Source: Malacoraja senta
Taxonomy: Eukaryota
Direction: 5' to 3'
Assembly (NCBI GenBank): GCA_038087875.1
Contig: CM075989.1
Span: forward strand, 24,182,001 to 24,246,000
Length of the DNA stretch: 64,000 nt
Shown: positions 4,365-63,635 of the stretch, piece by piece
Numbering within the stretch: the stretch's first letter is position 1
Layout of the letters: each line of letters starts with the position of its first letter
The notes under the pieces: generated by a model
Databases searched by the model: none
Seen by the model: the letters and a program-made list of their open reading frames with translations, nothing else
What the model was told of the DNA's origin: nothing
Position numbers and translations under genes: made by a program

Positions 4365-4594
4365 GCAAAAATGCTGGAGAAACTCAGCAGGTGAGGCAGC
4401 ATCTATGGAGCGAAGGAAATAGGCAATGTTTCGGGTCGAAACCCTTCTTCAAGAAGGTCTGAAGGTCTGAAGAAGGGTTTTGGCCCGAAACGTTGCCTAT
4501 TTCCTTCGCTCCATAGATGCTGTCTCACCTGCTGAGTTTCTCCAGCATTTTTGTCTACCTTTGATTTTCCAGCATCTGCAGTTCCTTCTTAAAC
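4365..4594. mobile_element. PLE-derived foldback unit (subtype B) with hammerhead-like core and 15-bp TSD
   Basis: TSD aagttaggaagtttg at 4350-4364 and 4595-4609; inverted arms; CTGAAGA..GAAACGTT at 4467-4494. Confidence 0.8.
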
Positions 4595-4924
4595 AAGTTA
4601 GGAAGTTTGTTGAAATGTTGGTGTTCATTGCCAGGAGTATGGAACATGACAGTCAGGAAGCCTTGGTCAGACTCCACCTGGAACTTTGCATGTATTTCTA
4701 GTCTCTGGATGGTAGGGAAGTTGTGAATGCATTGGAAGCAGTGCACTAGATGGATGCCTGTGATCAAGGAGATGAAGCTGAAGATGTGTTCAGCCCATGG
4801 GAACATGGAAGGATGAGAGGTGATCTCTTTAAAACATATACAGTACATTCTGAAGAGGAACTGACAGGGTGGATGCCTAGTGTGGTTTCCCCTAGGAGGG
4901 TTATCGAGGACTCATGGTAATTTC

Positions 4925-5100
4925 ATAAGTTCATAAGTGATAGGAGCATAATTAGGCCATTCGGCCCATCAAGTCTACTCCACCATTCAATCATGGCTGA
5001 TCTATCTCTCCATCTTAACCCCATTCTCCTGCCTTCTCCTCCAAACCTCTGACACCCGTACTAATCAAGAATCTATTTATCTCTGCCTTAAAAAGACCCA
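4925..5100 (-). mobile_element. CR1 3' tail
   Basis: ggccattcggcccatc...tcatggctgatct; reverse frame FKAEINRFLISTGVRG..EKAGEWG. Confidence 0.8.
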
Positions 5101-6335
5101 TTTCTGCCGTAAACAGAAATTCTTCATCACCATAGGTTGCAAGCTTGGTCTTCATCCGTGTTGCAGCTTCAATGGGGCCGATCTCAGCGAAGGCAAATAT
5201 TAAATTAGGCTGTAGTAGACTGGGACCCAAATCCACAGATTTCTGATGCTGTGGCAAAGATGCTTCAAGTGAGGCACGACGAAAATGCTTCCAAAATAGT
5301 TCATTTAGCGACCGCATTCATACATCATGGGCAGTAGAGCTGGAAAAGGGTAGTGTAATGTTTCTGTCAATCGGTATAATACGGAACACGTAACACTGAA
5401 TGACTTGTACGAGCAGAGTTTCAGTGGCATGTGCCCAATGAAAACAGCAAGCTTCCTTCTGAATGACAGACTGGCGTTGTGAAAGTGTTGATTTAGATTG
5501 TGTCATTCAACAGTGTAATTAAAGAGTAGACAAAAACCTCTGATGCATGGAATAAAGATGGACTTCAGTCGATGGGCCAGACTGCATCACACAAGGGAAG
5601 CAGCTCCTTGGGAAATTGCTGCTGCTAACTGCTGGCAGTGTGGGGGAAACACAGATCTCCCTGGACTTGCTGCTTTTCTAACTACTTCTGCTGCTGAACT
5701 ATAACCCTCTACCCCCTCCCCCCCCCCACCCTGCCACCGACCGGCCTATCAAAAAGCACAAGGACAAATACAATCCACCCGTCTTTCCTCATTTGCTTGA
5801 AAGCAACAAATTATTCTGCATACAAATAATGTTTGGTGTATACAATGACATTTATAATGGGATAATGAATCAAATCTGGAATAAAGTCAGAATAATTGGG
5901 ATAAAACTCTGTTTCAGATTGTTGAACCTGACTGGTGTTCTGAATTACACCTTTAGCTTTTCCATTCACGTTTCTGTTTGTGTTTACCGAGTAGTTGAAT
6001 GAGCAGAGTTCCTCCTTCACCCCCCCCCCCCCACCCACCTCCAAGCTTACCGCATGAGTTCACTATAGATTTGAAAGTGCATGTGAGTAACTTTGTTGAC
6101 AGCTGTCCCTGGAAGAGAAGGCAAATGCCTTTATCAATGGCGAAGCAAAGAACTCATGAAATTCAAGACAATGAGTATGGATAATAAAATAACTTAAACT
6201 GCAATAGAAATCATTGGCAAAGATTAGCAGCAAGTTTCAGTTTGAAAACAATACTGGGTAAATCAGTCAGAGTTGCTACACGTTTATGTCAGATGACAAT
6301 ATATTTAACTCATTAGAGTATAATAACTTAAATTT

Positions 6336-6615
6336 TGTCACAAAGTACTTGAGTAACTCAGCGGGTCAGGCAGCATCTGTGGAGAACATGGATATGTGAC
6401 GTTTCACAGAGTGCTGGAGTAACTCAGCGGGTCAGGCAGCATCTGTGGAGAACATGGATAGGTGACGTTTTGGGTCGGAACCCTTCGTCAGACTTGGATT
6501 CCATCCTGAAACGTCACCTATTCTTTTCTCTGGAGATGCTGCCTGACCCGTTGAGTTACTCCAGCATTCTGTGTCTATCTTCGGTATTAACCAGCATCTC
6601 GAAATTTCTTCCTAC
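6336..6615. mobile_element. PLE-derived foldback with two 66-bp units
   Basis: Two units plus an inverted arm; imperfect TSD ataactta(a/c)attt at 6323-6335 and 6616-6628. Confidence 0.75.
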
Positions 6616-7512
6616 ATAACTTACATTTCTTTAGCTTCTTAAACTGCAGAGAAATCTCCCTCGGTATTCTGCCAAGGAATAATTAAAAATAAACCAACTT
6701 GCAGCTGCAGTAGGTGCCCATTAGTGCTATTGGGCATCGCGGTGAAAGCAGAACACTTGCAGAAGACCATTTATGGAGAAAGCAAGCAGACAGTAGTTGC
6801 ATTTTGTACATGTACAACTTGTTGGCTATACTCGTGTGTACAATAAAGCTGTGGTGCCCAGTGCTTATAACCAAGGAATGCCTCACTAGAGAACTTTTAA
6901 GGGCTGCGTTTCACCCTGTTAATTTTAACAATAAAAGTCAATGTGTATAAACAGCAGCTAAACTGCATAGAAACTCATCAGAAGTGATCAGTACATGTTT
7001 AGTGTTGCTCTGAGGATTGATTCTGTGCTGTAATGGTTTTAAGAGGGCCAATATAATTTGGTCAGAGAGATCTCAAACCTTCTGAACTATCGCGCAATGT
7101 TGGAGATACCATAAAGGGATTTTTATTCACCTGGTGGTGATGTTCTTTCATTTTGCTTTCTTCATTCCTCTCCCAACATTTCCTACAACGGCTTCTAACC
7201 ACCCACCTACTCTTCATCTTCTGGCAATCTCATCCCACTGTATTTTATCGATCCTTACAATCAAATGTCTCCGATCTTACCTTCTTTTCTCTCTTGAAGC
7301 AACCATTCCCTTTCACCCATTATTATTGGTGATGCTTCATAAACCCTCACACACTCATTTATTTTCTAAATTGATCCTCCTAACTATTTCAATGCATGCC
7401 TGGTAATATTTCCTCAAAACCCTTTTTGCTTGGGAAATATTTTTGTCCATCTTCATCAACCTTTTCATTTATTTTTGTTGTAAAGTCGATCATGAAAATT
7501 TGATGAACGTAT

Positions 7513-7558
7513 TGAACGGGTCTGAAGAAGGGTCTCGACCCGAAACGTCACCCATTCA
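7513..7558 (+). ncRNA. Minimal type I hammerhead ribozyme motif (best-paired copy)
   Basis: Helix I tgaacgggt/acccattca (8 of 9 pairs), core CTGAAGA, extra A, stem II GGGT-CTCG-ACCC, GAAA, palindromic ACGT, GTC cleavage triplet ending at 7549. Confidence 0.7.
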
Positions 7559-9169
7559 TTCTCTCCAATGTCCCGCTGAGTTACTCCAGCACTTTGGTGT
7601 ATAACCAGCATCTGCAGTTCCTTCCTCCAATCAATCAATCAAAACTTTATTGTCATTCAGAAATACATCAGTAAATGCAATTCTAAACAAAATTTCGTTG
7701 CATCTGGCTCCCCGTGCAACACAAAAATAACAGGAGGATAAAATGAATAAAAATTACATTAAAATTACGTGCAGCGCATGGAATTATGCAACCATGAGCC
7801 TATATGCCAGTACTGACTTTAGGTTGGAAGAAAGGTCATTGATGAAGGAGCTGAAGATGCACATAGATTATGAATGTTTAAAAATTAGAACGTTATACTT
7901 TTTTACAAAAGGGAATATGGGAGTTTTTAAGCAGTTTGTATTGCTTCATGTAGTGCACTCAATAAAAACTCTCAAATCAGTACAATATCAGTACCCCAGG
8001 TAATATTGTTCCATCTTTACTTCCATTATCTTTTTCTTCTCTAAGTTCCTGGACGTTGGTTAAATGAAGGAGCTCCAGCAAAAGTGGTGAGAACCAACCA
8101 GATATCTACTGGCTCTCAAACGCCACGAAAAAGTCGTACACACTTAATGTGCCATGCTTTCCTTCCAGATTAATTTCCTCATTTCCAACTTGTTTTGGCC
8201 CATAGGCACACTCCATACGCATGATGAAAAGTACTCCAGAGATAATAATACATACCTAAAGCTAAAAAAAGACAGCTTCATCATTGCTGATGGATGTGAG
8301 GTTCCTGATTCGGCACAGTTTGCCGTGCCAAACTGCGAAGGGTTTCAACAAGCTTGCAGTGTAAGAGGCGATTGGAAGTAACTAGGGTGTTTGATGTTGT
8401 TCCAGTAGGTTTGTGATGAGAGTGGATAAGAGACTTTGATCTTCATGCCAAAATGTGGAATGACCAGATTAAGCACTTTTGGTGTTTCATACAAAAACTT
8501 TGTAGAACTAAATCGTAATTTATTCAGTTTATCTAAATGCACAATTTCGTGAGAGAATCCAAACTATTTTCAATTTTGAAAGGACATATTTTAGTTGTTT
8601 GATCGCTTGTACCATTTCCGACCAGGACTATCCCCCTGTATATGATTAATTTCTATTTACTCATCCAAAGAAGAAAGGAAATTAAGTTTGGTAATCGACA
8701 GTTCTCTCTATTGAATTCAAAAATGTATAAATAATGCATTCTTAGAAGGATAATTAGTGCATGTTTTCAAACTTAATTCACATTAATAATGTCACAACTA
8801 TGCATGTTTCTAATGGTGTCAAATCTGTGCATAATTCATGCTCTCAGAGAACTGTTAAAAGCAAAAGAACTCCGGATTTGAGAAAGGTGAAACAGAACCG
8901 GAGGCTGCTGGAAATGCTCAGGATGGCAGTTAGCGTCTGTGGAGCGAGCAAGGAATGAATGTTTCAGCTCGTTGATCTTTGGTAGATTATATCAGTAGGT
9001 TTTGTTTATTGAAAGTGTTACTTTTGGCCAGCCAAATCTAAGAGCTAGATCAAATATTAACTTGATCACAGCTGGCTGCTTGATAACAAATGCAATCTGT
9101 AGATTTCATTTCCTCCAATACACCTGACTTATTTTGGAACCTGTTTAGATCTTCCTTAGAGCTTGGGAC

Positions 9170-10850: not shown

Positions 10851-11572
10851 CCAACTGAAATAGTTGCCTGATGATCATATGGACTTGATAGTCGTGGTTG
10901 CGCCACTAGTAACCATTGAATGAAGCAGTGGAAATGGGGTTAATGCAGGAAAACATCAGTCGTGGACCTACTCAATGTTGATGCAAGCACAAGAGGCTGA
11001 GTGGCCGACCTTCTCTTGTTTGTTTGTCTCTATGTTAGTATTGACCAGAGGTTTGAGTGCATGGGGGTGCAGTCATCACCTCGCCGATGCAGTGAAGGTG
11101 GCTGACGTATGTGCATCAAATTGCTTTAGGATTTGAAAAGATGTTCGTGATCAATGGTTTGTTTATTGTCACATGTACCAGGTACAGTGAAATACATGTT
11201 TTGCACACAGATCCGCCAGACTATCCCCGTACATAAACACAATTGCACCAGTTAGTGTAGTATGCACGGAACAACCCAGCAAGTCCCCAGGCAAGAGTCC
11301 ACAGGCAAGAGTCCACTTGCAACCCACTGAGTCCATATGCAAGATTCACCATTTGGTGATTGTCGAGGTGATAACATCCATGGCTGTGAGGACTGGCACA
11401 CAACTCGAGTTGGGTCTTAGAGCGGTTGGGTGATGATACACGCTGCAAGCCCAGTGAAAGGTGGAGAAGGGCCTTAAACTGCAGGACATGGTTCCATCAA
11501 GACATAAACTCACATTTCCAAGCCAGTTTTGATCGTTAAACTGCTTCATACACTACTCCTGTCTTGAGATAC

Positions 11573-11792
11573 ACAGAGTGCTGGAGTAACTCAGCGGGTC
11601 AGGCAGCATCTGTGGAGAACATGGATAGGTGACATTTCACAGAGTGCTGGAGTAACTCAGCGGGTCAGGCAGCATCTGTGGAGAACATGGATAGGTGACG
11701 TTTCACAGAGTGCTGGAGTAACTCAGTGGGTCAGGCAGCATCTGTGGAGAACATGGATAGGTGACGTTCCGGGTCGAGACCCTGAGTCAGAC
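11573..11792 (-). repeat. Three 66-bp PLE-derived tandem units plus a degenerate hammerhead core
   Basis: Period 66 (agagtg at 11575, 11641, 11707). Confidence 0.85.
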
Positions 11793-12506
11793 TTGCCTGG
11801 CATGTTTACAACTGCCTCCATTTACACTCTCTTGACAAGAGCAACATGTTTTTTTCTCTCCCAAAACCTGTCGCCCCGGCCCTTCACTGTACCTCATTGT
11901 TATTGCTGATAGGAGCGAGATTTCCCCCGTACAATACCACGTTTTGCACAGAAGCTGCGTCCACATTAAGATTCATTCACAGTAACCCTGTGTAAGTAGC
12001 AAGAGATCAGAGCCTGCGGTTTACTTGATGTGTTCCATTCAAGGTGGAGCTTTGCCCAGTGAACCAGAGGCACAGTCTTTACACGAGTATCAATTAGAAC
12101 TGCCTGTTAAATGGTTTCATAGACCAAGAGCATTTGTGCTGTATATTTAACGTTATAACAAGCTCCTCTTTGTAACATCATGTTCTCCACCACACTTAAT
12201 CTACTTATTCAACTAGATGAGTTTAAAAGATGTTTGTTTTCATGAGATCAATGGCTTATTGGAGCCAAGACGCACATTCTTAATTATCCTAGAATGTATT
12301 AAGCACCTATGTCATGGTTATAAATCTATGAGGCAAAGAGAAAGGCATTTGATTTATTTGAATAATCCTGCTTGTAAATTCTCATATTGGAAGCATGATG
12401 TTCATGATTCATGGATGGGACCACAATTATTAAATTGGTTTGTGCCAATGTTATCCTTGATTTAGCTATAATATTTTATTGCCTGGAGAGCTGTGAAGCA
12501 GATTAT

Positions 12507-12604
12507 GAGTCTGAAGAAGGGTGTTGACCCAAAACGTCACCTATTCCTTTCTCTCCAGAGATGCCGCCTGACCCGCTGAGTTACTCCAGCATTTTGTGTC
12601 TATC
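12507..12604 (+). mobile_element. PLE-derived unit with mutated hammerhead (GAAA to AAAA)
   Basis: ctgaagaagggtgttgacccaaaacgtcacc. Confidence 0.7.
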
Positions 12605-15930: not shown

Positions 15931-16213
15931 GAATCAGCATGTTTCCATACTGTATCTTTCAATCAATCAGCAAATTTACTATTTCAACCAAGGGCGTGTG
16001 ATCATGACAGAGATTTAAACAATCTTGCAGCTTTTCATGTGATAGGAGTAGGATTAGGCCATTCGGCCCATCAAGTCTACTCCGCCATCCAATCATGGCT
16101 GATCTATCTCTCCCTCCTAACCCCATTCTCCTGTCTTCTCCCAATAACCTCTTTTATATTGGGTGCTTGGAATTCCTCCATTTTCTCAACTCAGAGATTG
16201 GATGAATTACTGT

Positions 16214-16386
16214 TTAAGAAGGAACTGCAGATGCTGGAAAATCGAAGGTAGACAAAAATGCTGGAGAAACTCAGCGGGTGAGGCAGCATCTATGGAGCGA
16301 AGGAAATAGGCAATGTTTCGGGTCGAGGCGCTTCTGTCTGAAGAAACGTTGCCTATTTCCTTCGCTCCATAGATGCTGCCTCACCC
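16214..16386. mobile_element. PLE-derived foldback (subtype B) with 14-bp TSD
   Basis: TSD ggatgaattactgt at 16200-16213 and 16387-16400. Confidence 0.8.
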
Positions 16387-17193
16387 GGATGAATTACTGT
16401 ACTTAGTTATAGTGTTGTGCAGAACGGAAACAGGCCCTTCTGCCCAACGTGCCCTTGCCGACCAAGATACAATACGATGTAACTTTATTTATCCCAGGAG
16501 GGAAATTGATCTGCCAACAGTCATAAACACATAATACATGAAACATGAAATTAAAGTGACGAGTGGAAAGGATTGGGGATGTGCAAAGATTGGGGAGGGG
16601 GGGGGAGTCATACTCCAGTTATGCTAGTCCCACCTGCCCACGTTTGGCCCATATCGCTCTAAATCTTTCCTACCCAAGTTCCTGCCCTAATGCTGATGTC
16701 CTGCCACTGGGCATGTTCATGTTGTCCCCAAAGATTTTCTGTAAATGGAGACGTCACGATTTCTGCTAAATTGGACCTGAAAGGCACTCGGATACTTAAG
16801 CAAGTTGTAAATACCTTGGACTGCAGAAATGTGGTTCCTGGTTTACTGTTTTGGAGGCTTGATGAGTCATCTGGTGTTGACGCAGTAAACATTTTTGAAT
16901 TATGAGGTGACATTTCTCGGCAATCTAATTGATTTTCTGAGAGTGGACCGTTGGCAGCTGTGTGTGTGTTGTGCTCTTGCTGTAGCTGGACCACTGAAAA
17001 ATCATCAGCAAGTGGGTGACTGAGAGAGACTTGCAGATAATCATTCACATTGATGAAGTTTAACTCTAAACCTCCCCCTTCTTCAACAATTATCATCCAT
17101 GCATCACCATCGTGTATCTTTGGAGAGAGTCCAAACTTAAAGGCCACCGTCCACTGCCTCATCCACTGCTCCTTCTGTACTACTGTGTGGGTC

Positions 17194-19357: not shown

Positions 19358-19456
19358 CCCTCTGATGAAGGGTCTCGACCCGAAACGTCACCGATTCCTT
19401 CTCTCCAGAGATGCTGCCTGTCCCGCTGAGTTACTCCAGCATTTTGTGTCTATCTT
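19358..19456 (+). mobile_element. PLE-derived unit with CTGATGA hammerhead core
   Basis: ctgatga-a-gggtctcgaccc-gaaa-cgtc at 19362-19389. Confidence 0.75.
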
Positions 19457-19854
19457 CCCTTTAAACCTACTGGCAGATTGGAAAGTGTATATTATACCAG
19501 TGTAACCTCTCAAAGAAAGGGATTTAAATGTGCTTTGGGGGATTAATCGGAATAACATTCAATGGTCCTGACAATTCTGTGTCGGAACACCACAATGCCC
19601 GGAGGGTACAGGATTACCACAGCTTTATGGTGGTAGCTTTCGAAAGCCAGAAGTGGATTACCTTTGGCTCTGACTATGATTCTGATCTATGTTCACGTTG
19701 CTCCTCTATAAAACCATCTGTAATGGGTTTTGTAAACAAGCACTTGCAGACAAATCAAACCAACACAACCAAGCACTGAGTTTGTTAAGCATCTAGAATG
19801 GACTATCTACCCTATCAAACCTCTGCCCTCGCCTATATCCACCTACCGAAAATG

Positions 19855-20390
19855 TAAGATGGACACAAAATGCTGGAGTAACTCAGCGGGTCAGGCAGCA
19901 TCTCTGGAGAGAAGAAATAGATGACGTTTCAGGTCGAGGCCCTTCAGTCTGAAGAAGGGTCTTGACCCGAAACGTCACCTATTCCCTTTTTGCTGGAGAT
20001 GCTGCCAGACCCGTTGTTACTCCAGCATTTTGTCTATTGTCAGTGTAAACCAGCATCTGCAGTTCCTTCCTACACATATTACCTGTCATGTTTTGTCCTG
20101 CCTCTCTCTTCTTTCAGCTTTCTCCCCCCCACCCCCACCACCTACAATCGGTCTGAATAAGGGTTTCAATCCGAAACATCGCCTTTTTTTTAGAGGTACT
20201 GCCTAACCCGTTGAGTTACTCCAGCACTTTGTGTCTTTTTGTGTAATAACCAACATCTGCAGTTCCTTCTTTCTAGAAGGGACCAGAGCTGACCCCATCC
20301 ATTCTCTGCACAGAAGGTGCCTGAACCACTGAGTTACTCCTGCACTTTGAGTTTCACTCAAGATTCAAGTATCTGCATTTCCTTGTGTCG
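19855..20390. mobile_element. Cluster of PLE-derived units (foldback plus two diverged copies)
   Basis: Intact core at about 19949-19976 and a degenerate core at about 20153. Confidence 0.75.
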
Positions 20391-20809: not shown

Positions 20810-21485
20810 AAGGTAGATACAAATTCTGGAGAAACTCAGCGGGTGAGGCAGCATCTATGGAGCGAAGGAAATAGGTGACGTTTTGGGTCGAGACCCTTCT
20901 TCAGACTGATGGGGGGGGGGGGGGAAGAAGAAAGGAAGAGGCAGAGACAGTGGGCTGTGGGAGAGCTGGGAAGGGGAGAGGAAAGAGGGAGAAAGCAAGG
21001 ACCAAAGATCCTATAGCAAGCAAGATAGATCACTCGATGAAAAAGACGTAGTACGGTCATGGGCAGATTCATGGGTAATTTTCGGCCCCATTTCCGTAAC
21101 CGGCTTCCGTCTCCGCACCAAAGATCCCATAGCGGAGCAAAGATAACTAGTGCGGTGATGGAAGCCGGTTACGGAAACATCCTCGTAAAAATAAAAGTTC
21201 TTTGGTAAAAATCTTCTCCTCATTTTCAGAATTATAATTTATTAACACAAACTGTTCCCCCGCAACGTTGATTACACTGTGGGTCGGGTTACTGAAATGG
21301 ATGAAAAAAAGGCCCACGTTCGCTCCGTTGCGTACTACACGTCAGCCCATTGCATTTAGAAGGCGTGGTCTATCTTGCTCCGCTATAGGATCTTGGCAAG
21401 GAATACCTGAAATTAGAGGTCAATGTTCATATCGCTGGGTGTAAACTGCCCAAGCGAAATATGAGGTGTTGTTCCTCCAATTTAC
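20810..21485 (-). mobile_element. Penelope-like element 3' fragment interrupted by a MITE
   Basis: Terminal repeat with hammerhead-like motif at 20875-20905; 21405-21485 encodes the GIY-YIG tail (KLEEQHLIFRLGSLHPAI..NID). Confidence 0.8.
21003..21395. mobile_element. MITE with about 33-bp imperfect TIRs and 8-bp TSD (P-element- or hAT-like)
   Basis: Ends CAAAGATCCTATAGC.. and ..GCTATAGGATCTTG; TSD gcaaggac at 20995-21002 and gcaaggaa at 21396-21403. Confidence 0.85.
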
Positions 21486-26838: not shown

Positions 26839-27165
26839 GAAACGTCACCTATCACTTGCTCCACAGATGCTGCCTGACCCGCTGAGTTACTCCAGCACTC
26901 TGTGAAACGTCATTTATCCATGTTCTCCACAGATGCTGCCTGACCCACTGAGTTACTCCAGCATGCTGTGAAACGTCACCTATCCATGTTCTCCACTGAT
27001 GCTGCCTGACCCGCTGAGTTACTCCAGCACTCTGTGAAACGTCACCTATCCATGTTCTCCAGAGATGCTGCCTGACCCACTGAGTTACTCCAGCACTCTG
27101 TGAAACGTCACCTATCCATGTTCTCCAGAGATGCAGCCTGACCCACTGAGTTACTCCAGCACTTT
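26839..27165 (+). repeat. Five 66-bp PLE-derived tandem units
   Basis: gaaacgtc at 26839, 26904, 26970, 27036, 27102. Confidence 0.9.
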
Positions 27166-43090: not shown

Positions 43091-43097
43091 CATTAAT

Positions 43098-45405: not shown

Positions 45406-45538
45406 CAGTCTGAAGAAGGGTCTCGACCCGAAACGTCACCCATTCCTTCTCTCCAGAGATGCTGCCTGCCCCGCTGAGTTACTCCAGCATTTTGTGTCTA
45501 TCTTTGATGTAAACCAGCATCTGCAGTTCTTTCCTACA
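45406..45538 (+). mobile_element. Solo 133-bp PLE-derived hammerhead unit with 12-bp TSD
   Basis: TSD cactaatgaatt at 45394-45405 and 45539-45550; intact core at 45410-45437. Confidence 0.85.
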
Positions 45539-45659
45539 CACTAATGAATTGTCTATTATAGTGCTGAGGTGCAATGATCCAAAGAGATCGCTTTTACTCA
45601 GAAGAGCAAGCAACGTGTGTGGGCTTAACATCAGGAAACATCTTTGGAAAGACAAACAG

Positions 45660-45795: not shown

Positions 45796-45850
45796 ACAAA
45801 GTTTCAGGTCGTAGATACAAAGAACTGCACTTGGTGGTTAATACATGATG

Positions 45851-45985
45851 GAGTATCTCAGCGGGTCAGGCAGCATCTGTGGAGAACATGGATAGGTGAT
45901 GTTTCACAGAGTGCTGGAGTAACTCAGCGGGTCAGGCAGCATCTCTGGAGAACATGGATAGGTGACGTTTCACAGAGTGCTGGAG
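45851..45985 (-). repeat. Two 66-bp PLE-derived units
   Basis: Same unit as the other arrays. Confidence 0.8.
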
Positions 45986-46628
45986 GAACCTGGGGACCTT
46001 GCTGGAGTGGGGGCTGGTGTGCTGCTTGCAGGAGGTCCACTTGCCACCACTCAGATGCCAACGAGGAGATGCAGGAAGGGTGAGGTAGATGGGGAACACA
46101 AACTCTTCATGATCCTTGGTCATTTTCGAGGTCCGTTTTTGGAGTCTGTGGGTGGAATGATATCTGGAAGCCATGTGTGGATAAGGCAGCTGCTTCTGCG
46201 GGTGACATCTGCTGTATCCCAGCCAAATCCATTCCACGTGAAACACATTATACGACCAAGGAGCCAACGCTACTTTCAAACATTCTGCCAGCAGGATGAC
46301 TAATGAGCAAGCACCAGAAAATGCTCCGTCATATGAACCCTATAATCACCAGCAGCCTGTTACCACACTTAGCCCGACTTGTATGGACATTCAGAAAGCT
46401 CCTGGCACGAGAGCAAACAGCAGAGACAAATTAGTCAGGGAGAGAGGAATGTGAGGAGAATTAGTCGAGCTCATGCACAGTGTTACAGAACTCTAACCAT
46501 GGCAATAATTGGTGTCATTTTGAGAATTAATGACGCAGCAATTATGGTAATTTCCCTGGGTCAGTGTGGAAGATGAGAGGACCTCTGTTAGGTTCCCCTC
46601 TCCATCAGGAAGTCTTGGACCTTTTCCA

Positions 46629-52931: not shown

Positions 52932-53195
52932 GAGTCTGAAGAAGGGTCTCGACCCGAAACGTCACATATCCATGTTCTCCAGTGATGCTGCTTGACCCGC
53001 TGAGTTACTCCAGCATTCTGTGAAACGTCACCTATCCATGTTCTCCACAGATGCTGCTTGACCCGCTGAGTTACTCCAGCATTCTGTGAAACGTCACCTA
53101 TCCATGTTCTCCACAGATGCTGCCTGACCCGCTGAGTTACGCCAGCACTGTGTCCTTTTATGTATTAACCAGCATCTGCGGTTCCTTGTTTCTAC
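52932..53195 (+). mobile_element. PLE unit with an intact hammerhead core followed by three 66-bp units
   Basis: CTGAAGA at 52936; gaaacgtc at 52956, 53022, 53088. Confidence 0.85.
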
Positions 53196-54399: not shown

Positions 54400-54809
54400 G
54401 AGACGCCAAAGTTTCCTGTCCTTGGCATTGGTATCCCAGCTTAAAGAAGGCAAGCGTAAAAGAGGCGGACAAAAGAAGAGATTCAAAGTCACCTTAAAAG
54501 CCAGCATGAAGAAATGTGAAATCGACATCGACAATTGGGAAACCAATGCCAAGGACAGGAAACTCTGGCGAACCTTCGTCCAAGAAGGAACAGCGACCTT
54601 CGAAGCCAAGAGAGCAGAATTAGATGAAAAGAGAAGAAAACGGAAAGAGAGGCAGCAACAACCAAAGCCCGATCTGCCGTCTGGAATTACCTGTCCTGAA
54701 TGTCGAAGAACTTTCAAAGCCAGGATTGGACAGAAGCCACATGAGAGTCCATAAAAACAACAGAACGTAGACCATAATCCTCGACCTCGAGGGATAGCCA
54801 CGACGACTC
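54400..54809 (+). mobile_element. RTE-clade LINE 3' fragment
   Basis: QLKEGKRKRGGQKKRFKVTLKASMKKCEIDIDNWETNAKDRKLWR..TCPECRRTFKARIG; acgacgac tail. Confidence 0.88.
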
Positions 54810-55489
54810 GAAACGTCACCCATTCCTTCTCTCCAGAGATGCTGCCTGTCCCGCTGAGTTACTCCAGCTTTTTGTGTCTATGTTCGGTGTAATCCAGCAT
54901 CTGCAGTTCCTTCCTACACATTAAATCTGTGTTCTGCACATCATTGACTCATTGATGAAATGTGTTTGGATCCAAAGATGTTTCTATCTGAATGGGAAAA
55001 AAACCTATTCATTTTTATTTGAATTATCTATCGTATTATTACCTTCTGAATAGAGTTTGAAAGCAATAAGGGTGGTGATGAAAGGAGGATTTAGTTGTCC
55101 GGAGGGGGTAGGGGGGGGGTGGGGGAGGTATTTATGACAAAGAAGTGTAAAGACAGCATTTCCCAGTCAAAGTGCGATTGAGCTCGTTACTAACAGAAAT
55201 AAAATGGTGCTAAACACTGAAGACTTTGGTCTTAATCATTCAAGCTCCTTTGGGTTTAGAGTGCATGCGTGAGTTCTTAATGTGAACATTGCCAGGAATA
55301 TAAATGAGTGTTAGAGAAACAGGGGGAGCTGCTAGAGTGGGTACAACGTGTTTTTATCTCAGTCCCTGCAACGTGTGTGCACACATCATGAATATATATC
55401 CATAATAAAACATCATAAATAGATGATGGATGTTTACAGTCACCACACTGGTCATGAGGGTTGTGTCTGCGTACAACCCTGCCCAGAAA

Positions 55490-55773: not shown

Positions 55774-56114
55774 GATAACATTGCTTTTGCTTTCACTATA
55801 CCTCTCACTTTCTTTCCAGTTTAAAACTAATTTCTATTTTTTTGGTCTGGAGAAAGGCTACTGACCTGTAAAGTCAACTTTCTTCACTCTCCATAGTGGC
55901 TGCTTGACCCACTGGGTATTTCGAGCAATGTCTGTATTTATTTCTGATTTCCGGCATCTGCATTATGTTATTTTTGAACATCGGACCAATCAGCTTGGCA
56001 TTTACGGTGTGGGGTTTTCTTGGCTGAGACAGTCACTCGTCTAATTGTGATATGTGTATTGTTGGCAAAGCCAGCATTTATTGATCAACTCAATGCCTCT
56101 TGAGGAGATGTGTT

Positions 56115-56370
56115 TGAAGGAACTGCAGATGCTGGTTTACACCAAAGATAGACACAAAAAGCTGGAGTAACTCAGCGGGACAGGCAGCATCTCTGGAGAG
56201 AAGGAATGGGTGACGTTTCAGGTCGAGACCCTTCTTCAGACTGAAGACGGGTCTCAACCAGAAACGTTACCCATTCCTTATATCAAGACATGCTACCTGT
56301 CCTGCTGAGTTACTCCAGCACTTTGTGTCTATCTTTGGTTTAAACCAGCATCTGCAGTTCCTTCCCACAC
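56115..56370. mobile_element. Near-complete PLE foldback (subtype A)
   Basis: Arms centred on cttcagactgaag, with hammerhead-like cores on both strands. Confidence 0.85.
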
Positions 56371-56754
56371 AATACATTTCCAGGGCTGTGCAGAATGAAG
56401 AACAAAATGGGATTTGTTGACTAGCCTTTCCAGTTTGCTGGCAAAGGCACAAGAAGCCTCTGGGCTGGGTGATGATGTGGGTCTCTGAACATAACAGTTG
56501 CTGAGTGAAGGCCAGCCAATGTCCACCAGTACAGCAGGTTTCATGGAATACACAGCTGGCTCATTTTACCACTTGGTCTGTGGGTTTTGATGGTTGTCAT
56601 GGTTGGTTGGGGCCCAGCAACAAGGCCAGCCATTCCCCTGTCTGCACTTTGGTCACTAAAGCAGTTGTGCTATCTCTTTACGTTTTACAGTGTCTGTCCG
56701 ATATCCTGCATGGACCAGCACGCATGGTACTTCATGCAAACAGAACAGACTCAA

Positions 56755-60764: not shown

Positions 60765-61655
60765 CTACTGGAGTAACTCAGCGGGTCAGGCAGCATCTGT
60801 GGAGAACATGGATACTTGACGTTTCACAGAGTACTGGAGTAACTCAGCGGGTCAGGCAGCATCTGTGGAGAACATGGATAAGAACATGGATAGGTGACGT
60901 TTCACAGAGTGCTGGAGTAACTCAGCGGGTCAGGCAGCATCTGTGGAGAACATGGATAGGTGACGTTTCACAGAGTGCTGGAGTAACTCAGCGGGTCAGG
61001 CAGCATCTGTGGAGAACATGGATAGGTGACGTTTCACAGAGTGCTGGAGTAACTCAGCGGGTCAGGCAGCATCTGTGGAGCGAAGGAAATGGGCAACCTT
61101 TCGGGCCGAAACCCTGAAGGAAATAGGCAACGTTTCGGGCCGAAACCCGGAAGGGTTTCGGGCCGAAACGTTGCCTATTTCCTTCGCTCCATAGATGCTG
61201 CCGGAACATGGATAGGTGACGTTTTACAGAGTGCTGGAGTAACTCAGCGGGTCAGGCAGCATCTGTGGAGAACATGGATAGGTGGCGTTTCACAGAGTGC
61301 TGGAGTAACTCAGCGGGTCAGGCAGCATCTGTGGAGAACATGGATAGGTGGCGTTTCACAGAGTGCTGGAGTAACTCAGCGGGTCAGGCAGCATCTGTGG
61401 AGAACATGGATAGGTGGCGTTTTGAGTCAAAACCAGTCTCGATGCTGCCTGAACCTCTGTGTGTGGCAATGAATTCCACAGATTCACCACCATTGTCAGC
61501 TGAAACTTCACAGCCACTTCAGAGATAGAAAAAGACAAAGTGCTGGAGTAACTCAGTGGCTCAGGCAGCATCGAGACTGGTCTTGACCCAAAACGTCACC
61601 TATCCATGTTCTCCACAGATGCTCCCTGACCCGCTGAGTTACTCCTGCACTCTGT
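60765..61655. repeat. Largest 66-bp unit array (about 8 units) with an embedded subtype-B foldback (61080-61203) and a downstream inverted arm (61560-61655)
   Basis: Directly visible repeats. Confidence 0.9.
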
Positions 61656-61929
61656 GTCCTTCAAACATTGCCTGACCACCTGGGTGTCGCAGCAGATTTT
61701 GTTTTTATTTTAATCAGTTCATTGTCGGTTTGTGCTGGCAGTTTTTTCCACAAGACATATCCTCGAAATCTTTTCTCCTTAAGATTCACCTTCCCCAGTT
61801 TATTATCTAATTATCTATAAGAAATATTACTTTATATCAATTTTAATATTTAGAGTCATAGTTTTTCATTGTCCTATCTGGGCCACGTGACAATAAACTC
61901 TCTTGACTTGACTTGACTTGACTAGTTTA

Positions 61930-62112
61930 ATACAGTGTGGAAACATGCCCTTCGGCCCAACTTGCCCACACTGGCCAACAATGTCCCAGCTACCCTAGTC
62001 CCACTTGCCTGTGCTTGGTCCATATCCCTCCACACCTGTCCTATCCATGTACCTGTCTAACTGTTTCTTAAACGATGGGATAGTCCCAGCCTCAACTACC
62101 TCCTCTGGCAGC
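61930..62112 (-). mobile_element. CR1 3' tail
   Basis: Homologous to 21846-22030. Confidence 0.8.
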
Positions 62113-63257
62113 TTTTTACTGTAATCAAATGTATTTCTGGTGAGACTTTCTCGACATTTCAGAGGATACTTGAGTATGCAGTGGCACTCACTTCACTTGC
62201 TGACCTGATGAATATAGTTGGGAGAGGCATCTTGTCCATGAACAAGACCCTATCTCCGTGAAGCCCAGGTCATAACAATTGCATGGTGTTTATTTCATCT
62301 GTACAGACTATTCCCCATCTCCCACAGGCAGGCTTCTCATCAGAGGTGTTTATCACACTTAGAGCTGGTCCAAGATATATTAATGAGCCTCGGGCTTAGA
62401 AGTCACAGTTGATTTACTGGTCTCAGCATTGGGCAGTTGTGATTCATGCCTTGCTTACTTTACACCTCATCAAAGAGTCCCGGCTCTAGAATCAACTGCT
62501 TTGCAGATAAGTCATGAGAAAACCATGCATTCAAAAATAGTTTTCGTAATGGACTTATTTAATGATTTGTGGGTTTTTATGGGTTGTCGGCATTGGATAT
62601 ATTGTGCCAGAGGCTTTTGTCTTCGAAGTGAACAATAAACAGGTGTGCAAACAGATAGAACAGTCAGTCGTACAGAGCAGTACGTGTGGCAGTGAGCAGT
62701 GTATCTCCCTGATGTTGAAAGCTAGAGCGGACCTCATGTGGACGGTTTATGTCAGCGTGAGGGTTGGTGGCAGAGGTATTTACGACAACTATCACAACAT
62801 TTAAACAACATTTGGACAGGGACATGGTTAGTAATACGGGCCAAATTCAGGCAGGTTGGACTAGTGTAGATGGAGTATGTTGGTCGGTGTGGGCAACTTG
62901 GGCCGAAGGGCCTGTTTCCACACTGTATCACTCTATGACTCTGTCGTTTTATAACAACATCTGGTAACACAGGAGCAGGTCCAATTCTTTTAAATTTCAT
63001 TTTAAAATTGAAATAAAAAATAAATATCTTTGCTCCAAGATGATTGTTAGGAAAAGCCTGGTCATTTTTCTCAGCTGTGTCTTTTATTGAAATAAATAAC
63101 TTAAATGGATACAGCAGAGAGACACCACCCATGTGTGATGAAAGGATGAAGGTGTCCCGGTTACTGGCTATGTCCCCTTGTCCGAGTACTAATGAAGGGT
63201 GTGTAGGTGGAGTGTGCCATGCACTGGTCTACTGATCCCAGCTGGAAGGTTGCAGGA

Positions 63258-63635
63258 GTGAACTGCAGGTGCTGGTTTACACCGAAGATAGGCACAAAAT
63301 GCTGGAGTAACTCAGCGGGACAGGCAGCATCTCTGGAGAGAAGGAATGGGTGAAGTTTCGGGTCGAGACCCATCTTCAGACTGAGAGTCAGGGGAGAGGG
63401 AAACTAGAGATGTGGGAGAGTTTCAAAGAGAATGAAAAGGTCAGATCAAAGCAGACGATGATCAAGGAAATGTAGAATGGTTGTTCAAGAAGAAACTGCA
63501 GATGCTGGAAAATCGAAGGTACACAAAAATGCTGGAGAAACTCAGCGGGTGCAGCAGCATCTATGGAGCGAAGGAAATAGGCAACGTTTCAGGCCGAATG
63601 TAGAATGGTTCATTGTTGGCTGAAGGGAAGGTGAC
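63258..63635 (-). mobile_element. PLE 3' fragment with a nested subtype-B unit (63483-63596)
   Basis: 14-bp TSD aatgtagaatggtt at 63469-63482 and 63597-63610. Confidence 0.8.

What the first reader, a model, noticed from the sequence alone, without database searches (positions are those of the whole stretch)
4365..63635. Mobile family of short hammerhead-ribozyme-bearing, Penelope-derived units (retrozyme-like) across the window
Seen: about 20 intact or degenerate CTGA(A/T)GA-A-stemII-GAAA-CG-T(C/T) motifs on both strands (intact at 4467, 7522, 19362, 19949, 23751, 45410, 52936). They sit in 110-280 bp units that match the terminal repeat of the PLE at 41987-43090. Several units have their own TSDs (15 bp at 4350/4595, 14 bp at 16200/16387, 12 bp at 45394/45539, 14 bp at 63469/63597). 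Known: PLEs carry minimal type I hammerheads with a palindromic helix III that are thought to act as dimers, and metazoan retrozymes are related non-autonomous RNAs. Inference: a high-copy non-autonomous ribozyme retroelement family mobilised in trans by the PLE RT and GIY-YIG nuclease. Caveat: helix I is weak in most copies.
Basis: partly seen in the sequence, partly recalled or inferred. Interest (0 to 1): 0.8.

Follow-up and report, generated by a model that had tools for sequence, protein, structure and literature searches.

The report
Hammerhead-bearing tail ends of Penelope elements
The short repeats with a self-cutting-RNA (hammerhead) motif scattered through this window are the last 100-140 bases of Penelope-type jumping genes, a known arrangement present here in tens of thousands of copies, and they are likely by-products of the elements' own copying enzyme rather than an independent ribozyme parasite.

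Summary
The window has 14 exact CTGAWGA...GAAAC motifs against 1.0 expected, 26 copies within 5 substitutions, 8 of them formally intact, and all four reported target-site duplications are exact. The units are the 3' end of Penelope-like elements (PLEs). In full-length genomic copies the order is ORF, about 120 nt of 3'UTR, hammerhead, about 98 nt, then a 37-nt tail. The genome holds PLE frames open for over 1,000 residues. The window holds only degraded C-terminal endonuclease remnants.

Minimal dimer-type hammerheads in PLE terminal repeats, solo copies and opposite-strand pairs are in print (Cervera and De la Pena 2014). This scan noted the same kind in at least 31 other genomes.

The retrozyme-like reading is only partly supported:
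- The window has no tandem arrays of complete hammerheads.
- Solo, inverted and PLE-attached copies intermix on a tree.
- Array junctions elsewhere in the genome are one-off events.

Beyond the known picture:
- 72% of 152 copies end within a few bases of the hammerhead's first nucleotide, not at its cleavage site.
- Two of seven multimer arrays have unit boundaries exactly at the predicted cleavage site.

No RNA ends were seen in oligo-dT reads. Verdict: new member of a known kind.

The parts
3834..4007 (.). Head-to-head pair of units, both truncated inside the hammerhead (unit positions 27-135 on -, 27-95 on +); forms a long hairpin
   Evidence: BLAST with unit 45407-45545; sub-threshold hairpin hits in Rfam
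4350..4609 (.). One insertion made of two head-to-head units (4368-4451 on -, short form; 4465-4594 on +, long form with intact hammerhead at 4467), flanked by the 15-bp TSD AAGTTAGGAAGTTTG
6339..6616 (.). Unit on - with a degenerate hammerhead (6491) and two 66-bp internal repeats, abutting an inverted partner on + (6505-6616)
7520..7629 (+). Solo unit with intact hammerhead (7522), internal deletion downstream
11571..11793 (-). Unit with degenerate hammerhead (11790) followed by 66-bp repeats (3.0 copies)
12508..12604 (+). Short-form solo unit, hammerhead with G12 changed (GAAAC to AAAAC)
16200..16400 (.). Hairpin-like insertion (long arm on - 16206-16335, short arm on + 16343-16398) flanked by the 14-bp TSD GGATGAATTACTGT
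19361..19467 (+). Short-form solo unit, intact hammerhead (19362, CUGAUGA form)
19856..20269 (.). Head-to-head pair (19856-19945 on -, 19946-20076 on + with intact hammerhead 19949), followed by a further + copy (20151-20269) that keeps PLE 3'UTR upstream
20810..20907 (-). Short-form unit continuous with C-rich PLE 3'UTR upstream (attached class)
23748..23849 (+). Short-form unit of the young sequence type (stem II GGGU/GCCC, UUCG loop, GUU site), intact hammerhead 23751
26596..27172 (.). Two diverging degenerate units (26708 on -, 26819 on +); the + one carries five 66-bp repeats
29373..29785 (.). Head-to-head pair of long-form units meeting at 29507, followed by a further hairpin of unit parts (29659-29785)
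30419..31052 (.). Unit on - (30419-30551), unit on + (30678-30811) and a 200-bp remnant of the PLE endonuclease coding region on - (30849-31052; tblastn 31051-30890)
31530..31882 (-). 66-bp repeat array (3.8 copies) of unit positions 24-90, no CUGANGA box
39902..39988 (-). Short-form solo unit, A6 of the core changed (CUGGAGA)
41988..42080 (-). Inverted short-form unit placed head-to-head against the truncated PLE
42082..43097 (+). 5'-truncated, degraded PLE 3' part. Linker and GIY-YIG remnant in frame 42098-42770, stop at 42849, 3'UTR, hammerhead 42963-42990 (two core changes), tail to about 43090.
   Evidence: (38% identity to a shark GIY-YIG protein, E 6e-34)
44454..44568 (-). Solo unit, helix III palindrome lost (ACAU)
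45394..45550 (+). Long-form solo unit 45406-45538 with intact hammerhead (45410), flanked by the 12-bp TSD CACTAATGAATT; the insert starts at CAGT
45845..45989 (-). 66-bp repeat array (2.1 copies) of unit positions 24-90
52933..53187 (+). Unit with intact hammerhead (52936), 2.9 copies of the 66-bp repeat and a tail
54804..54924 (+). Long-form unit truncated inside stem II (unit positions 18-138)
56109..56374 (.). Head-to-head pair of long-form units; the two CUGAAGA boxes are 1 nt apart (56239 on -, intact; 56241 on +)
60768..61434 (-). Two 66-bp repeat arrays (4.6 and 3.3 copies) with a short perfect hairpin of stem II sequence between them (61121-61178)
63251..63431 (-). Long-form unit continuous with about 47 nt of PLE 3'UTR (attached class)
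63469..63610 (-). Unit truncated inside stem II (positions 17-122), flanked by the 14-bp TSD AATGTAGAATGGTT

Best explanation
The units are the 3'-terminal 100-140 bases of Penelope-like retrotransposons, carrying the minimal hammerhead motif that these elements keep in their terminal repeat. They were likely made when the PLE reverse transcriptase started at one of two fixed sites near the RNA 3' end and stopped, or ran off the template, just 5' of the hammerhead.

Shown:
- In full-length genomic copies the order is ORF, about 120 nt of 3'UTR, hammerhead, about 98 nt to the short end, then a 37-nt tail that is also the first 37 nt of the next element body.
- Copies end at either the short end or the tail end.
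- Copies carry TSDs of 10-21 bp.
- Head-to-head pairs share one TSD.

Inferred:
- Priming from both cut DNA strands gives the head-to-head pairs.
- The pile-up of 5' ends at the first hammerhead nucleotide likely marks a 5' end of the template RNA. A transcription start in the terminal repeat is the likeliest source; stalling of the enzyme is the alternative.
- The short copies lack upstream promoter sequence and are probably dead on arrival.
- The hammerhead is likely kept by selection in master elements. It cuts at least sometimes in vivo, but cut RNA is rarely the template for dispersed copies.
For: PLE identity:
- The window frame 41991-42848 aligns to a shark GIY-YIG protein (E 6e-34).
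- An endonuclease probe finds 80,074 first-look candidates in the genome, with the hammerhead about 200 bp downstream in 10 of the 11 loci outside the window.
- The RT part of one locus matches proteins carrying RVT_1, DUF8422, HTH_animal and GIY-YIG (E down to 7e-92; 161 proteins at E <= 1e-10).
- An N-terminal probe finds frames open for up to 1,233 residues.

Anatomy:
- L081 has a hammerhead at 1223, tail end at 1349, open frame 1350-5048, and the next hammerhead at 5167.
- L079 is a head-to-tail tandem with period 3,891.

3' ends are bimodal, at unit positions about 90-99 and about 125-138. This matches the two adjacent internal RT start sites and the tail shown for an Anolis PLE (PMC11167929, passages).

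5' ends:
- Of 152 copies in 464 kb, 43 continue into PLE 3'UTR, 48 abut an inverted copy and 61 abut unrelated DNA.
- Of the first 30 genomic hits of the young variant, 13 are attached, 3 inverted and 14 solo. Nine of the 14 solo copies have exact TSDs of 10-21 bp.
- Those inserts start at C3 of CUGAAGA, or carry 1-6 extra bases or a re-copied GAAGAAGGG before it.

No separate lineage: see the tree and cross-table. The 66-bp-array type is also found attached to PLE 3'UTR.

Constraint in masters: across six sequence types with unalignable 3'UTRs, the 34-nt hammerhead block differs at 3 positions only (loop, U-A to U-G, H17 C to U).

Cleavage footprint: two of seven multimer arrays (L196, L199) have unit boundaries at GUU|ACC to the nucleotide. 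Each junction is unique to its array.

Known biology fits:
- Minimal hammerheads in PLE repeats, an extra base between A9 and G10.1, palindromic 15.2-16.2, pairs on opposite strands and mostly solo truncated copies (PMC4209133, text read).
- Inverted 5'-truncated copies and a 30-40-bp tail (PMC8557442, passages).
- A transcription start in the upstream terminal repeat (PMC6765202, passage).
Against: - Among dispersed copies the catalytic core is no better kept than the downstream 38 nt: 86.6% against 87.7% at the least biased cut-off.
- Stem II shows no covariation: 93.1% paired against 92.7% in shuffles, and 2 compensatory cells against 0.96.
- Helix I has only 2 conserved pairs.
- Dispersed copies do not start at the cleavage site. 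Only 12 of 297 matches have 5' ends at unit positions 29-36. None of 60 hammerhead-less copies starts exactly at A1.1.
- A fixed transcription start at the hammerhead edge is not backed by full-length copies. In the six usable of 23 surveyed, the upstream repeat starts at reference positions 302, 393, 513, 648, 684 or at or before 103. C3 is at 664.
- Labels on the tree are slightly clustered: 20 of 500 shuffles reach the observed value. Some re-mobilisation of short copies is therefore not excluded.
- Self-cleavage was not assayed.
Confidence: 0.8

Rival explanations
1. The short units are an independent, high-copy, non-autonomous ribozyme retroelement family, retrozyme-like or SINE-like. They would be transcribed on their own, processed by the hammerhead, perhaps circularised, and mobilised in trans by the PLE enzyme.
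For: - The units keep the whole stretch from the hammerhead to the RT start sites and have their own TSDs.
- A sharp 5' end at the hammerhead edge could mark a discrete small RNA.
- Elsewhere in the genome there are head-to-tail arrays of 219-384-bp units, each with a complete hammerhead. The largest has 13 exact motifs. Four of seven arrays are flanked by direct repeats of 7-14 bp.
- Animal retrozymes have been argued to derive from PLE terminal repeats (bioRxiv 10.64898/2026.07.22.740005, abstract and Results part 1).
Against: - The window has no array with two consecutive complete hammerheads. Only 4 of 155 motifs have a same-strand neighbour within 400 bp.
- The 66-bp arrays lack the 5' half of the ribozyme.
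- Short and PLE-attached copies intermix in the two commonest sequence types.
- The four array junctions tested occur in one array each, with 11, 4, 3 and 13 hits. The arrays are single events, not spreading families.
- Solo copies lack any helix I 5' strand.
- 97% of RNA reads run on into unlike flanks, and there is no pile-up of ends.
Confidence: 0.12
2. The motif is conserved but is not a working ribozyme in this family. It would be kept as part of the structured RNA module that the PLE protein binds or needs for starting reverse transcription. The hammerhead-like core would then be an inherited relic.
For: - Helix I is 2 bp and there is no helix III in cis.
- Copies do not begin at the cleavage site.
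- The RNA reads show no ends there.
- In the predicted fold of the unit, the 5' strand of the motif pairs with the tail (z -2.1).
- In the Anolis PLE, catalytic mutants did not affect insertion in vitro, and no reads began or ended at the cut site (PMC11167929, passages).
- Metazoan PLE hammerheads cleaved poorly in vitro (PMC4209133, text).
Against: - All eleven core nucleotides, the ACGU palindrome and an allowed H17 are invariant across six sequence types whose neighbouring 3'UTRs cannot be aligned.
- Two independent arrays have unit boundaries exactly at the predicted scissile bond.
- The Anolis motif does cleave with protein present (PMC11167929, passage).
Confidence: 0.25
3. The hairpin-shaped units are miniature inverted-repeat DNA transposons (MITEs) or microRNA precursor genes.
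For: Several units are near-perfect long hairpins. They score below threshold against plant and animal miRNA precursor families, for example MIR1507 at 43.8 bits against a gathering score of 73. They are flanked by direct repeats.
Against: - Each arm is a copy of the PLE 3' end and ends outward at the PLE short end or tail end.
- The arms can differ in length and type of end.
- The direct repeats are 12-15 bp and variable, not the fixed 2-10 bp of DNA transposon families.
- Single-arm copies are more common.
- The Rfam scores lie far below the curated cut-offs, and the hits occur on both strands.
Confidence: 0.01

Closest known systems
Minimal hammerheads in the terminal repeats of metazoan Penelope-like elements (Cervera and De la Pena 2014, PMC4209133)
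   Same: - Type I order of elements and a CUGANGA box.
- One unpaired base between A9 and G10.1, and a G10.1-C11.1 pair.
- GAAA followed directly by a palindromic C-G (ACGU) with no loop III, so helix III can only form between two copies.
- Short helix I.
- Located in the PLE terminal repeat.
- Thousands of mostly solo copies, plus pairs on opposite strands.
   Different: - Stem II is 4 bp with a CUCG or UUCG tetraloop, rather than the 6-8 bp reported for Schistosoma and Drosophila.
- The main text of that paper names no cartilaginous fish; its supplements were not read.
- The copy number here is far higher: 13,276 and 19,101 exact hits for two core variants.
Poseidon-type PLE of Anolis carolinensis, PAc (Frangieh et al. 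2024, PMC11167929)
   Same: - Terminal repeat - ORF - terminal repeat order, with the hammerhead just upstream of the ORF.
- Insertions end at two adjacent internal sites, which gives the tail.
- The genomic and RNA data suggest uncut RNA is the main template.
   Different: - Here the ORF opens after the tail rather than inside stem II.
- The clade of this family (Poseidon, Neptune or other) was not determined.
- No biochemistry was done here.
Animal non-LTR retrozymes (Cervera and De la Pena 2020, PMC7229834; Li, Clavereau and Pollet 2026, bioRxiv 10.64898/2026.07.22.740005)
   Same: - Non-coding, type I hammerhead.
- Sequence kinship with PLE terminal repeats.
- Elsewhere in this genome there are 219-384-bp head-to-tail arrays with a hammerhead in each unit.
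   Different: - The window's units are dispersed single copies or head-to-head pairs, not tandem repeats.
- Its hammerhead is the minimal form, not the canonical one with loop-loop contacts.
- The arrays found in the genome have junctions unique to one locus each.
- No circular RNA was shown.
Sm-alpha / Sj-alpha SINE-like hammerhead elements of Schistosoma. These are named in the review PMC6765202 (passage and reference list); details are recalled.
   Same: Short, very abundant, hammerhead-bearing retroposed repeats in an animal genome that also holds PLEs.
   Different: Those elements are described as having their own promoter and a canonical hammerhead. No promoter was identified here, and the units are the PLE's own 3' end.

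Membership tests
Penelope-like element, canonical EN+ type | Reverse transcriptase of the PLE/TERT-related kind followed by a C-terminal GIY-YIG endonuclease in one ORF | tested here: met
   This holds for genomic copies, not for the window.
- The RT fragment L014:3415-4275 matches 161 proteins at E <= 1e-10, most with RVT_1 + DUF8422 + HTH_animal and many with GIY-YIG.
- Single degraded frames give only sub-threshold Pfam hits: RVT_1 at E 0.004, GIY-YIG at E 0.0003-0.009.
- Open frames reach 1,233 residues.
- The window holds only C-terminal remnants. Its 286-residue frame has no Pfam hit.
Penelope-like element, canonical EN+ type | Pseudo-LTRs from partial tandem insertion, frequent 5' truncation, an inverted 5'-truncated copy at the 5' side, and a 30-40-bp tail | tested here: met
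   - Tandem and partial-tandem copies, and a 37-nt tail equal to the start of the body.
- Variable repeat starts.
- 48 of 152 copies abut an inverted copy.
- N-terminal probe 6,565 against endonuclease probe 80,074 first-look candidates.
- Features as defined in PMC8557442 (passages).
Penelope-like element, canonical EN+ type | Assignment to a named clade (Penelope/Poseidon, Neptune, Nematis, Hydra) | not tested
   No phylogeny with reference RTs was made. An earlier scan note on another shark-like genome names Neptune; this was not checked.
Hammerhead ribozyme, minimal type I (PLE min-HHR) | Conserved core C3 U4 G5 A6 N7 G8 A9 ... G12 A13 A14, with A15.1-U16.1 and an H17 that is not G | tested here: met
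   Met in 8 of 26 window copies and 73 of 152 sampled copies. Invariant across six sequence types.
Hammerhead ribozyme, minimal type I (PLE min-HHR) | Stem II supported by covariation | tested here: inconclusive
   The 4-bp stem is present. Among 152 copies, pairing is 93.1% against 92.7% in shuffles, with 2 compensatory cells against 0.96. Between sequence types there is only a one-sided U-A to U-G change.
Hammerhead ribozyme, minimal type I (PLE min-HHR) | Helix III formed between two copies through a palindromic 15.2-16.2 (dimer) | tested here: met
   ACGU follows GAA directly in 110 of 152 copies. It is the commonest element lost (42 copies), mostly by CpG decay. That a dimer actually forms was not tested; a cofold script crashed.
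Hammerhead ribozyme, minimal type I (PLE min-HHR) | Helix I of several base pairs | tested here: not met
   Only G-U upstream and A-C downstream can pair (2 bp) in every sequence type. Solo copies have no upstream strand at all.
Hammerhead ribozyme, minimal type I (PLE min-HHR) | Site-specific self-cleavage after H17 | not testable with these tools
   The only evidence is indirect. Two of seven genomic arrays have unit boundaries at GUU|ACC. Oligo-dT reads show no pile-up of RNA ends.
Rfam hammerhead families (types I, II, III, HH9, HH10) | Score at or above the family's gathering threshold | tested here: not met
   No hammerhead hit in the window at the gathering threshold or at E up to 10.
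Animal non-LTR retrozyme | Head-to-tail tandem repeats of 150-450 bp, each unit with a complete type I hammerhead | tested here: not met
   - Window: none. The eight 66-bp arrays lack the CUGANGA box and stem II.
- Elsewhere in the genome, five of seven arrays examined meet it. The two of those five whose junctions were tested are unique to one locus each.
Animal non-LTR retrozyme | Expression as unit-length linear and circular RNA | tested here: inconclusive
   Only oligo-dT and single-cell libraries of a coded organism could be laid. Reads cover the unit on both strands, 97% run on into unlike flanks, and no ends pile up. Such libraries lose small non-polyadenylated and circular RNA.

The most novel reading that the evidence does not exclude
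The genome records the RNA ends used by a Penelope reverse transcriptase. Most short copies and head-to-head pairs end at the very first nucleotide of the hammerhead. This would mark a discrete template 5' end created at the ribozyme's edge. Rare multimer insertions, built by end-to-end template jumping, have unit boundaries exactly at the scissile bond. They would be the first genomic footprints that a minimal PLE hammerhead cuts in vivo. If so, the ribozyme and the neighbouring start site define a set of short leader RNAs that the enzyme copies far more often than the full element. The long-open question of what the PLE hammerhead is for then becomes testable from genome sequence alone.
Probability: 0.3. 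Interest if true: 0.6.

Novelty: new member of a known kind. Interest (0 to 1): 0.3.

Why it matters
As stated, the finding is ordinary. Hammerheads in Penelope terminal repeats and their flood of truncated copies have been known since 2014, and this scan met them in at least 31 other genomes.

What could matter is the mechanism. The role of the PLE hammerhead and the way PLEs build tandem, inverted and tailed insertions are still unresolved (PMC11167929, PMC8557442).

This genome has a young family with near-identical copies, intact TSDs and open frames. That lets the ends of thousands of insertion events be read to the nucleotide.

The pile-up of 5' ends at the hammerhead edge, the lack of ends at the cleavage site in single copies, and the cleavage-site boundaries in two multimer arrays are concrete, checkable statements about which RNAs the enzyme copies.

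Tried and rejected
- **Rfam.** No hammerhead family matched at the gathering threshold or at E up to 10. Only miRNA-like hairpin scores far below threshold, from head-to-head pairs.
- **Pfam on 17 window frames.** Nothing for the PLE remnant.
- **PDB sequence search with the RT fragment.** 0 hits.
- **Protein Atlas.** RT/HTH_animal clusters, used only as a lead.
- **First set of endonuclease-probe loci (L002-L018).** No clean repeat-ORF-repeat copy. Full-length copies came only with an N-terminal probe.
- **The 66-bp-array type as a separate non-autonomous lineage.** None of 10 sampled copies was PLE-attached. Rejected because at least 7 of 30 further loci are attached to PLE 3'UTR.
- **A fixed transcription start at the hammerhead edge that would also define full-length copies.** Not backed. 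Only 6 of 23 surveyed 5' regions matched the reference, and their repeats start at varied places.
- **Pol III A/B boxes and a splice acceptor ((Y)n-CAG just before the motif).** Looked at by eye only. No convincing boxes or 5' splice site, and no upstream exon of high agreement in the RNA loose ends (agreement 0.37-0.57).
- **RNA.** No RNA holder listed by the run index. Raw oligo-dT and single-cell reads of a coded organism were laid once on window:42650-43200.
- **A dimer cofold script.** Crashed without output.
- **Lunse, Weinberg and Breaker (RNA Biol).** Not held. It is known to me only from the reference list of PMC6765202 and from recall.
- **Literature searches for this family in cartilaginous fishes.** 'hammerhead ribozyme' + Penelope + elasmobranch gave 0 papers. 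Penelope-like + shark + ribozyme gave 1 review. Penelope + Chondrichthyes + transposable elements + SINE gave 7 papers, none describing it by title or abstract.
- **Repbase and Dfam.** Could not be consulted.

Full report

Yes. The pattern CTGAWGA-N6-36-GAAAC occurs 14 times on both strands. A hundred dinucleotide-preserving shuffles give a mean of 1.00, with at most 5. One of the 14 (52064) is unrelated.

Allowing up to five substitutions to CTGAAGAAGGGTCTCGACCCGAAAC gives 26 copies.

BLAST with one real copy (45407-45545) finds 77 matching stretches in the window.

All four reported target-site duplications are exact, at 15, 14, 12 and 14 bp.

Rfam finds no hammerhead family, even at E up to 10. 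This is expected for a motif with no helix III of its own.

**2. What the motif is**

Read 5' to 3', the unit is:

(C)AGU - CUGAAGA - A - GGGU[CUCG]ACCC - GAAA - C G U C | ACC...

- There is one unpaired A between A9 and G10.1.
- Stem II is 4 bp with a tetraloop.
- A15.1-C15.2-G16.2-U16.1 forms the palindrome ACGU with no loop, so helix III can only form between two molecules.
- The predicted cut is after GUC, or after GUU in the young variant.
- Helix I has two conserved pairs.

These are the features of the minimal hammerheads described in the terminal repeats of metazoan Penelope-like elements. That description includes the extra base, the palindromic 15.2-16.2 positions, pairs of motifs on opposite strands, and the statement that most motifs are single and probably belong to truncated PLEs (PMC4209133; I read parts 1 and 2 of the text).

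**3. What the units are**

- an inverted unit (41988-42080);
- a 5'-truncated, degraded PLE 3' part (42082-43097).

The frame 41991-42848 has no Pfam hit. It does align to a shark GIY-YIG protein at 38% identity (E 6e-34), with a gap over the first half of the nuclease motif. tblastn with full-length relatives shows that the window holds only residues of about 655-902 of a 904-residue protein (42098-42770), plus a 54-residue remnant (31051-30890). It holds no RT.

*The genome.* The assembly is 1.94 Gb. The window lies at C13:24182001-24246000.
- The endonuclease fragment finds 80,074 first-look candidates. The hammerhead lies about 200 bp downstream in 10 of the 11 loci outside the window.
- An RT fragment from one locus matches 161 proteins at E <= 1e-10. 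The best are from sharks, at 65% identity. Their precomputed domains are RVT_1, DUF8422 and HTH_animal, often with GIY-YIG, in proteins of about 800-930 residues. This is the canonical EN+ PLE architecture.
- A 150-residue N-terminal probe taken from one of those shark proteins finds 6,565 candidates, many with frames open for 800-1,233 residues.

*Full-length anatomy*:
- The ORF stop is followed by about 120 nt of pyrimidine-rich 3'UTR, then the hammerhead.
- About 98 nt after the start of the hammerhead lies the short end (...GTGTACCTT).
- A 37-nt stretch follows (CGATTTTCCAGCATCTGCAGTTCCTTCTTTAACAC). It is also the first 37 nt of the next element body, and the ORF opens right after it.
- L079 is a head-to-tail tandem with period 3,891.
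- L081 and L080 have a partial upstream copy, that is, a pseudo-LTR.
- Insertions end either at the short end or after the 37-nt tail.

This is the published PLE insertion anatomy (PMC8557442, passages). It also matches the two adjacent internal reverse-transcription start sites shown for the Anolis element (PMC11167929, abstract and passages).

So the window's units are the last 100-140 bases of PLEs.

**4. Abundance and age**
- The 31-mer of the common core variant has 13,276 exact hits. The 28-mer of the young variant (stem II GGGU/GCCC, UUCG loop, GUU) has 19,101. Reversed controls give 0.
- In the window only 2 of the 26 copies carry the exact 31-mer. The total is therefore likely above 10^5. 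This is an extrapolation from one window.
- Copies of the young variant are 97-99% alike. The window's copies are mostly older. The commonest loss is the CpG inside ACGU.

**5. Where copies begin and end**

I sampled the window plus forty 10-kb stretches of contig 1. The stretches were centred on exact hits, so the index copies are young by choice. This gave 155 motifs, 152 of them analysable.

*Upstream sequence*:

| Class | Copies |
|---|---|
| Continue into PLE 3'UTR | 43 |
| Abut an inverted copy | 48 |
| Abut unrelated DNA (solo) | 61 |

- Twelve of the 61 solo copies have an exact direct repeat of 9 bp or more that ends 10 to 0 bases before the motif. The same holds for 10 of 758 shuffled pairings.
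- The 5' ends of BLAST matches peak at unit positions 0-4 (101 of 297). A second peak at 24 (42) comes from the 66-bp repeats.
- There is no peak at the cleavage site: 12 of 297 fall at positions 29-36. This count overstates the first peak, because other sequence types cannot align upstream.
- The 3' ends fall at positions 90-99 and 125-138.

*The first 30 genomic hits of the young variant*:
- 13 are attached, 3 inverted and 14 solo.
- Nine of the 14 solo copies have exact TSDs of 10-21 bp.
- The inserts start at C3 of CUGAAGA in three loci.
- In six loci they carry 1-6 extra bases or a re-copied GAAGAAGGG before C3.

That is how reverse transcriptases behave at the end of a template. This is an inference, not a demonstration.

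*Head-to-head pairs.* The two CUGAAGA boxes often lie 1-4 nt apart. The pair shares one TSD, as at 4350/4595. The arms can end differently, one short and one long. This fits priming from both cut strands, as seen in vitro for the Anolis enzyme (PMC11167929, passage).

**6. Are the short units a lineage of their own?**

Probably not.
- On a tree of the 93-nt unit, with flanks left out, the three classes change 64 times against 70.7 +/- 3.5 in 500 shuffles. Twenty shuffles reach the observed value. Clustering is therefore weak.
- The two commonest sequence types hold all three classes.
- The type with 66-bp repeats had no attached copy in the sample (0 of 10). However, at least 7 of 30 further loci are attached to PLE 3'UTR.

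**7. Is the hammerhead under selection, and does it cut?**

*Dispersed copies decay neutrally.*
- Core 86.6% against downstream flank 87.7%, at the least biased cut-off (186 of 252 anchored copies).
- No covariation in stem II.

It says nothing about the masters.

*Across lineages the motif is conserved.* Six sequence types have 3'UTRs that cannot be aligned. Across them the 34-nt block from AGUC to the cut site differs at three positions only, all compatible with the fold. Downstream blocks (GATGCTGC, CCGCTGAGTTNCTCCAGC) are also conserved. They probably belong to the module that the enzyme recognises.

*RNA.* No RNA holder was listed by the run index. Raw oligo-dT and single-cell reads of a coded organism, laid on window:42650-43200 at 88% likeness, gave about 40,000 reads per run over the unit.
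- In the two oligo-dT runs both orientations were about equal; the single-cell run leaned to one orientation.
- 97% of reads in the two oligo-dT runs (85% in the single-cell run) ran on into unlike flanks.
- No place had many molecules beginning or ending.

That is what passive co-transcription of dispersed copies looks like. Such libraries would miss small or circular RNA.

**8. Multimer arrays elsewhere in the genome**

A 32-base word from the start of the element body has 388 hits. Many lie in head-to-tail arrays with short periods. I mapped seven arrays onto one genomic tandem copy. On that copy C3 is at 364, the first base after the cut at 392, the short end near 459 and the tail end at 490.

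| Array | Period (bp) | Unit span on reference | Note |
|---|---|---|---|
| L193 | 254 | 328-583 | complete hammerhead in each unit |
| L194 | about 295 | 360-647 | run of A at one junction |
| L195 | 275 | 306-586 | complete hammerhead in each unit |
| L196 | 165 | 391/392-556 | no hammerhead core |
| L197 | 219 | 363/364-583 | complete hammerhead in each unit |
| L199 | 138 | 392-536 | 11 units, no hammerhead core |
| L200 | 384 | 235-626 | 13 exact hammerheads |

- Two independent arrays (L196, L199) begin their unit exactly at the predicted scissile bond.
- Two (L194, L197) begin at the hammerhead's first nucleotide.
- Four arrays are flanked by direct repeats of 7-14 bp.
- The right-hand end of three arrays is the canonical tail end, of two the short end, and of two close to one of these.
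- The four junction words I tested occur only in their own array, with 11, 4, 3 and 13 hits.

I read these arrays as single insertion events of multimeric cDNA, made by repeated jumps from the 5' end of one short RNA to another. The unit boundaries would then record RNA 5' ends.

On that reading the hammerhead does cut in vivo at least sometimes. The hammerhead edge would also be a real RNA end. With two of seven arrays the support is suggestive, not strong. Single copies that start exactly at the cut site were not found: 0 of 60 hammerhead-less copies.

**9. What remains open**

Why the 5' ends pile up at C3 is not settled.
- A transcription start in the terminal repeat is known for Drosophila Penelope (PMC6765202, passage). 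The conserved TCAGTC resembles an initiator; this resemblance is recalled, not tested.
- In six full-length copies the upstream repeat starts at varied places. Templates reaching further upstream therefore also exist.
- Stalling of the enzyme at the edge of the structured module is the alternative.
- In the predicted fold, the motif's 5' strand pairs with the tail (z -2.1; 7 of 200 shuffles fold as well).

**10. Comparison and novelty**

The closest known system is the minimal hammerhead of metazoan PLE terminal repeats. Membership is met on core, position, palindromic helix III and PLE anatomy. It is not met on helix I length or on any Rfam model.

The window's units are not retrozymes as that family is defined. 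The genome does hold one-off retrozyme-like arrays. This agrees with the recent proposal that animal retrozymes derive from PLE repeats (bioRxiv 10.64898/2026.07.22.740005; I read the abstract, Results part 1 and passages).

My searches found no paper describing this family in cartilaginous fishes. I could not consult Repbase, Dfam or the papers' supplements.

Earlier notes of this scan report the same kind in at least 31 other genomes. One is a cartilaginous-fish case whose copy ends also suggested that the RNA is copied uncut.

**Verdict:** a real, very abundant, new member of a known kind, with a mechanistic footnote worth a census.

Noticed in passing
window 33890-33994 (-): Sub-threshold match to the CPEB3/HDV-like ribozyme families: 23.4 bits against a gathering score of 35 (E 0.086), with an overlapping HDV-F-prausnitzii match at 22.9 bits. 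HDV-like ribozymes sit at the 5' ends of some non-LTR retrotransposons. Whether this one heads a LINE was not examined.
   Followed up: no
window 3-1598 (+), 50146-50673 (-), 58307-58888 (-): Open frames with weak zf-RVT hits (E 2e-5 and 7e-5) and an ALKBH8_N-like hit (E 2e-12). These are probably remnants of LINE-type retrotransposons unrelated to the PLE family.
   Followed up: no
window 4387-4533, 16274-16389, 29700-29783, 61121-61178, 31543-31664: Head-to-head unit pairs form near-perfect hairpins of 50-70 bp. They score against miRNA precursor families on both strands, far below threshold. If transcribed they would be good substrates for small-RNA pathways.
   Followed up: partly
window 46633-47011: Minisatellite with an 11-bp period (GTCCCTGCACC, about 32 copies) that leaves all six frames open over about 500 bp.
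   Followed up: no
window 47525-47679: 40-bp tandem repeat (3.9 copies) built from an inner part of the PLE unit (...CCACAGATGCTGCCTGACCCGCTGAG). This is a second kind of internal array, beside the 66-bp one.
   Followed up: no
window 52139-52267: 42-bp tandem repeat, 3.1 copies at 95% identity, unrelated to the PLE unit.
   Followed up: no
L042 7433-7495 (-) and L022 4245-4300 (+): Two hammerhead cores in direct tandem only 38 and 31 nt apart. The first is cut short a few bases after its GUC and runs straight into the next CAGU-CUGAAGA. This could be a template slip at the motif.
   Followed up: no
L194 (G000:C1:247043400-247045200), junction near 808-818: One unit junction of a 3-unit array holds a run of 11 A plus CC between the body sequence and CAGUCUGAAGA. 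This would fit a short polyadenylated RNA that starts at the hammerhead edge. No AATAAA was seen upstream by eye.
   Followed up: partly
L124, L119, L121, L126, L129 and window 61082-61154: The same small palindrome of stem II sequence (...GGGCCGAAACCC-GGAA-GGGTTTCGGGCC...) recurs at several loci next to 66-bp arrays. It seems to be an inherited part of that sequence type.
   Followed up: no
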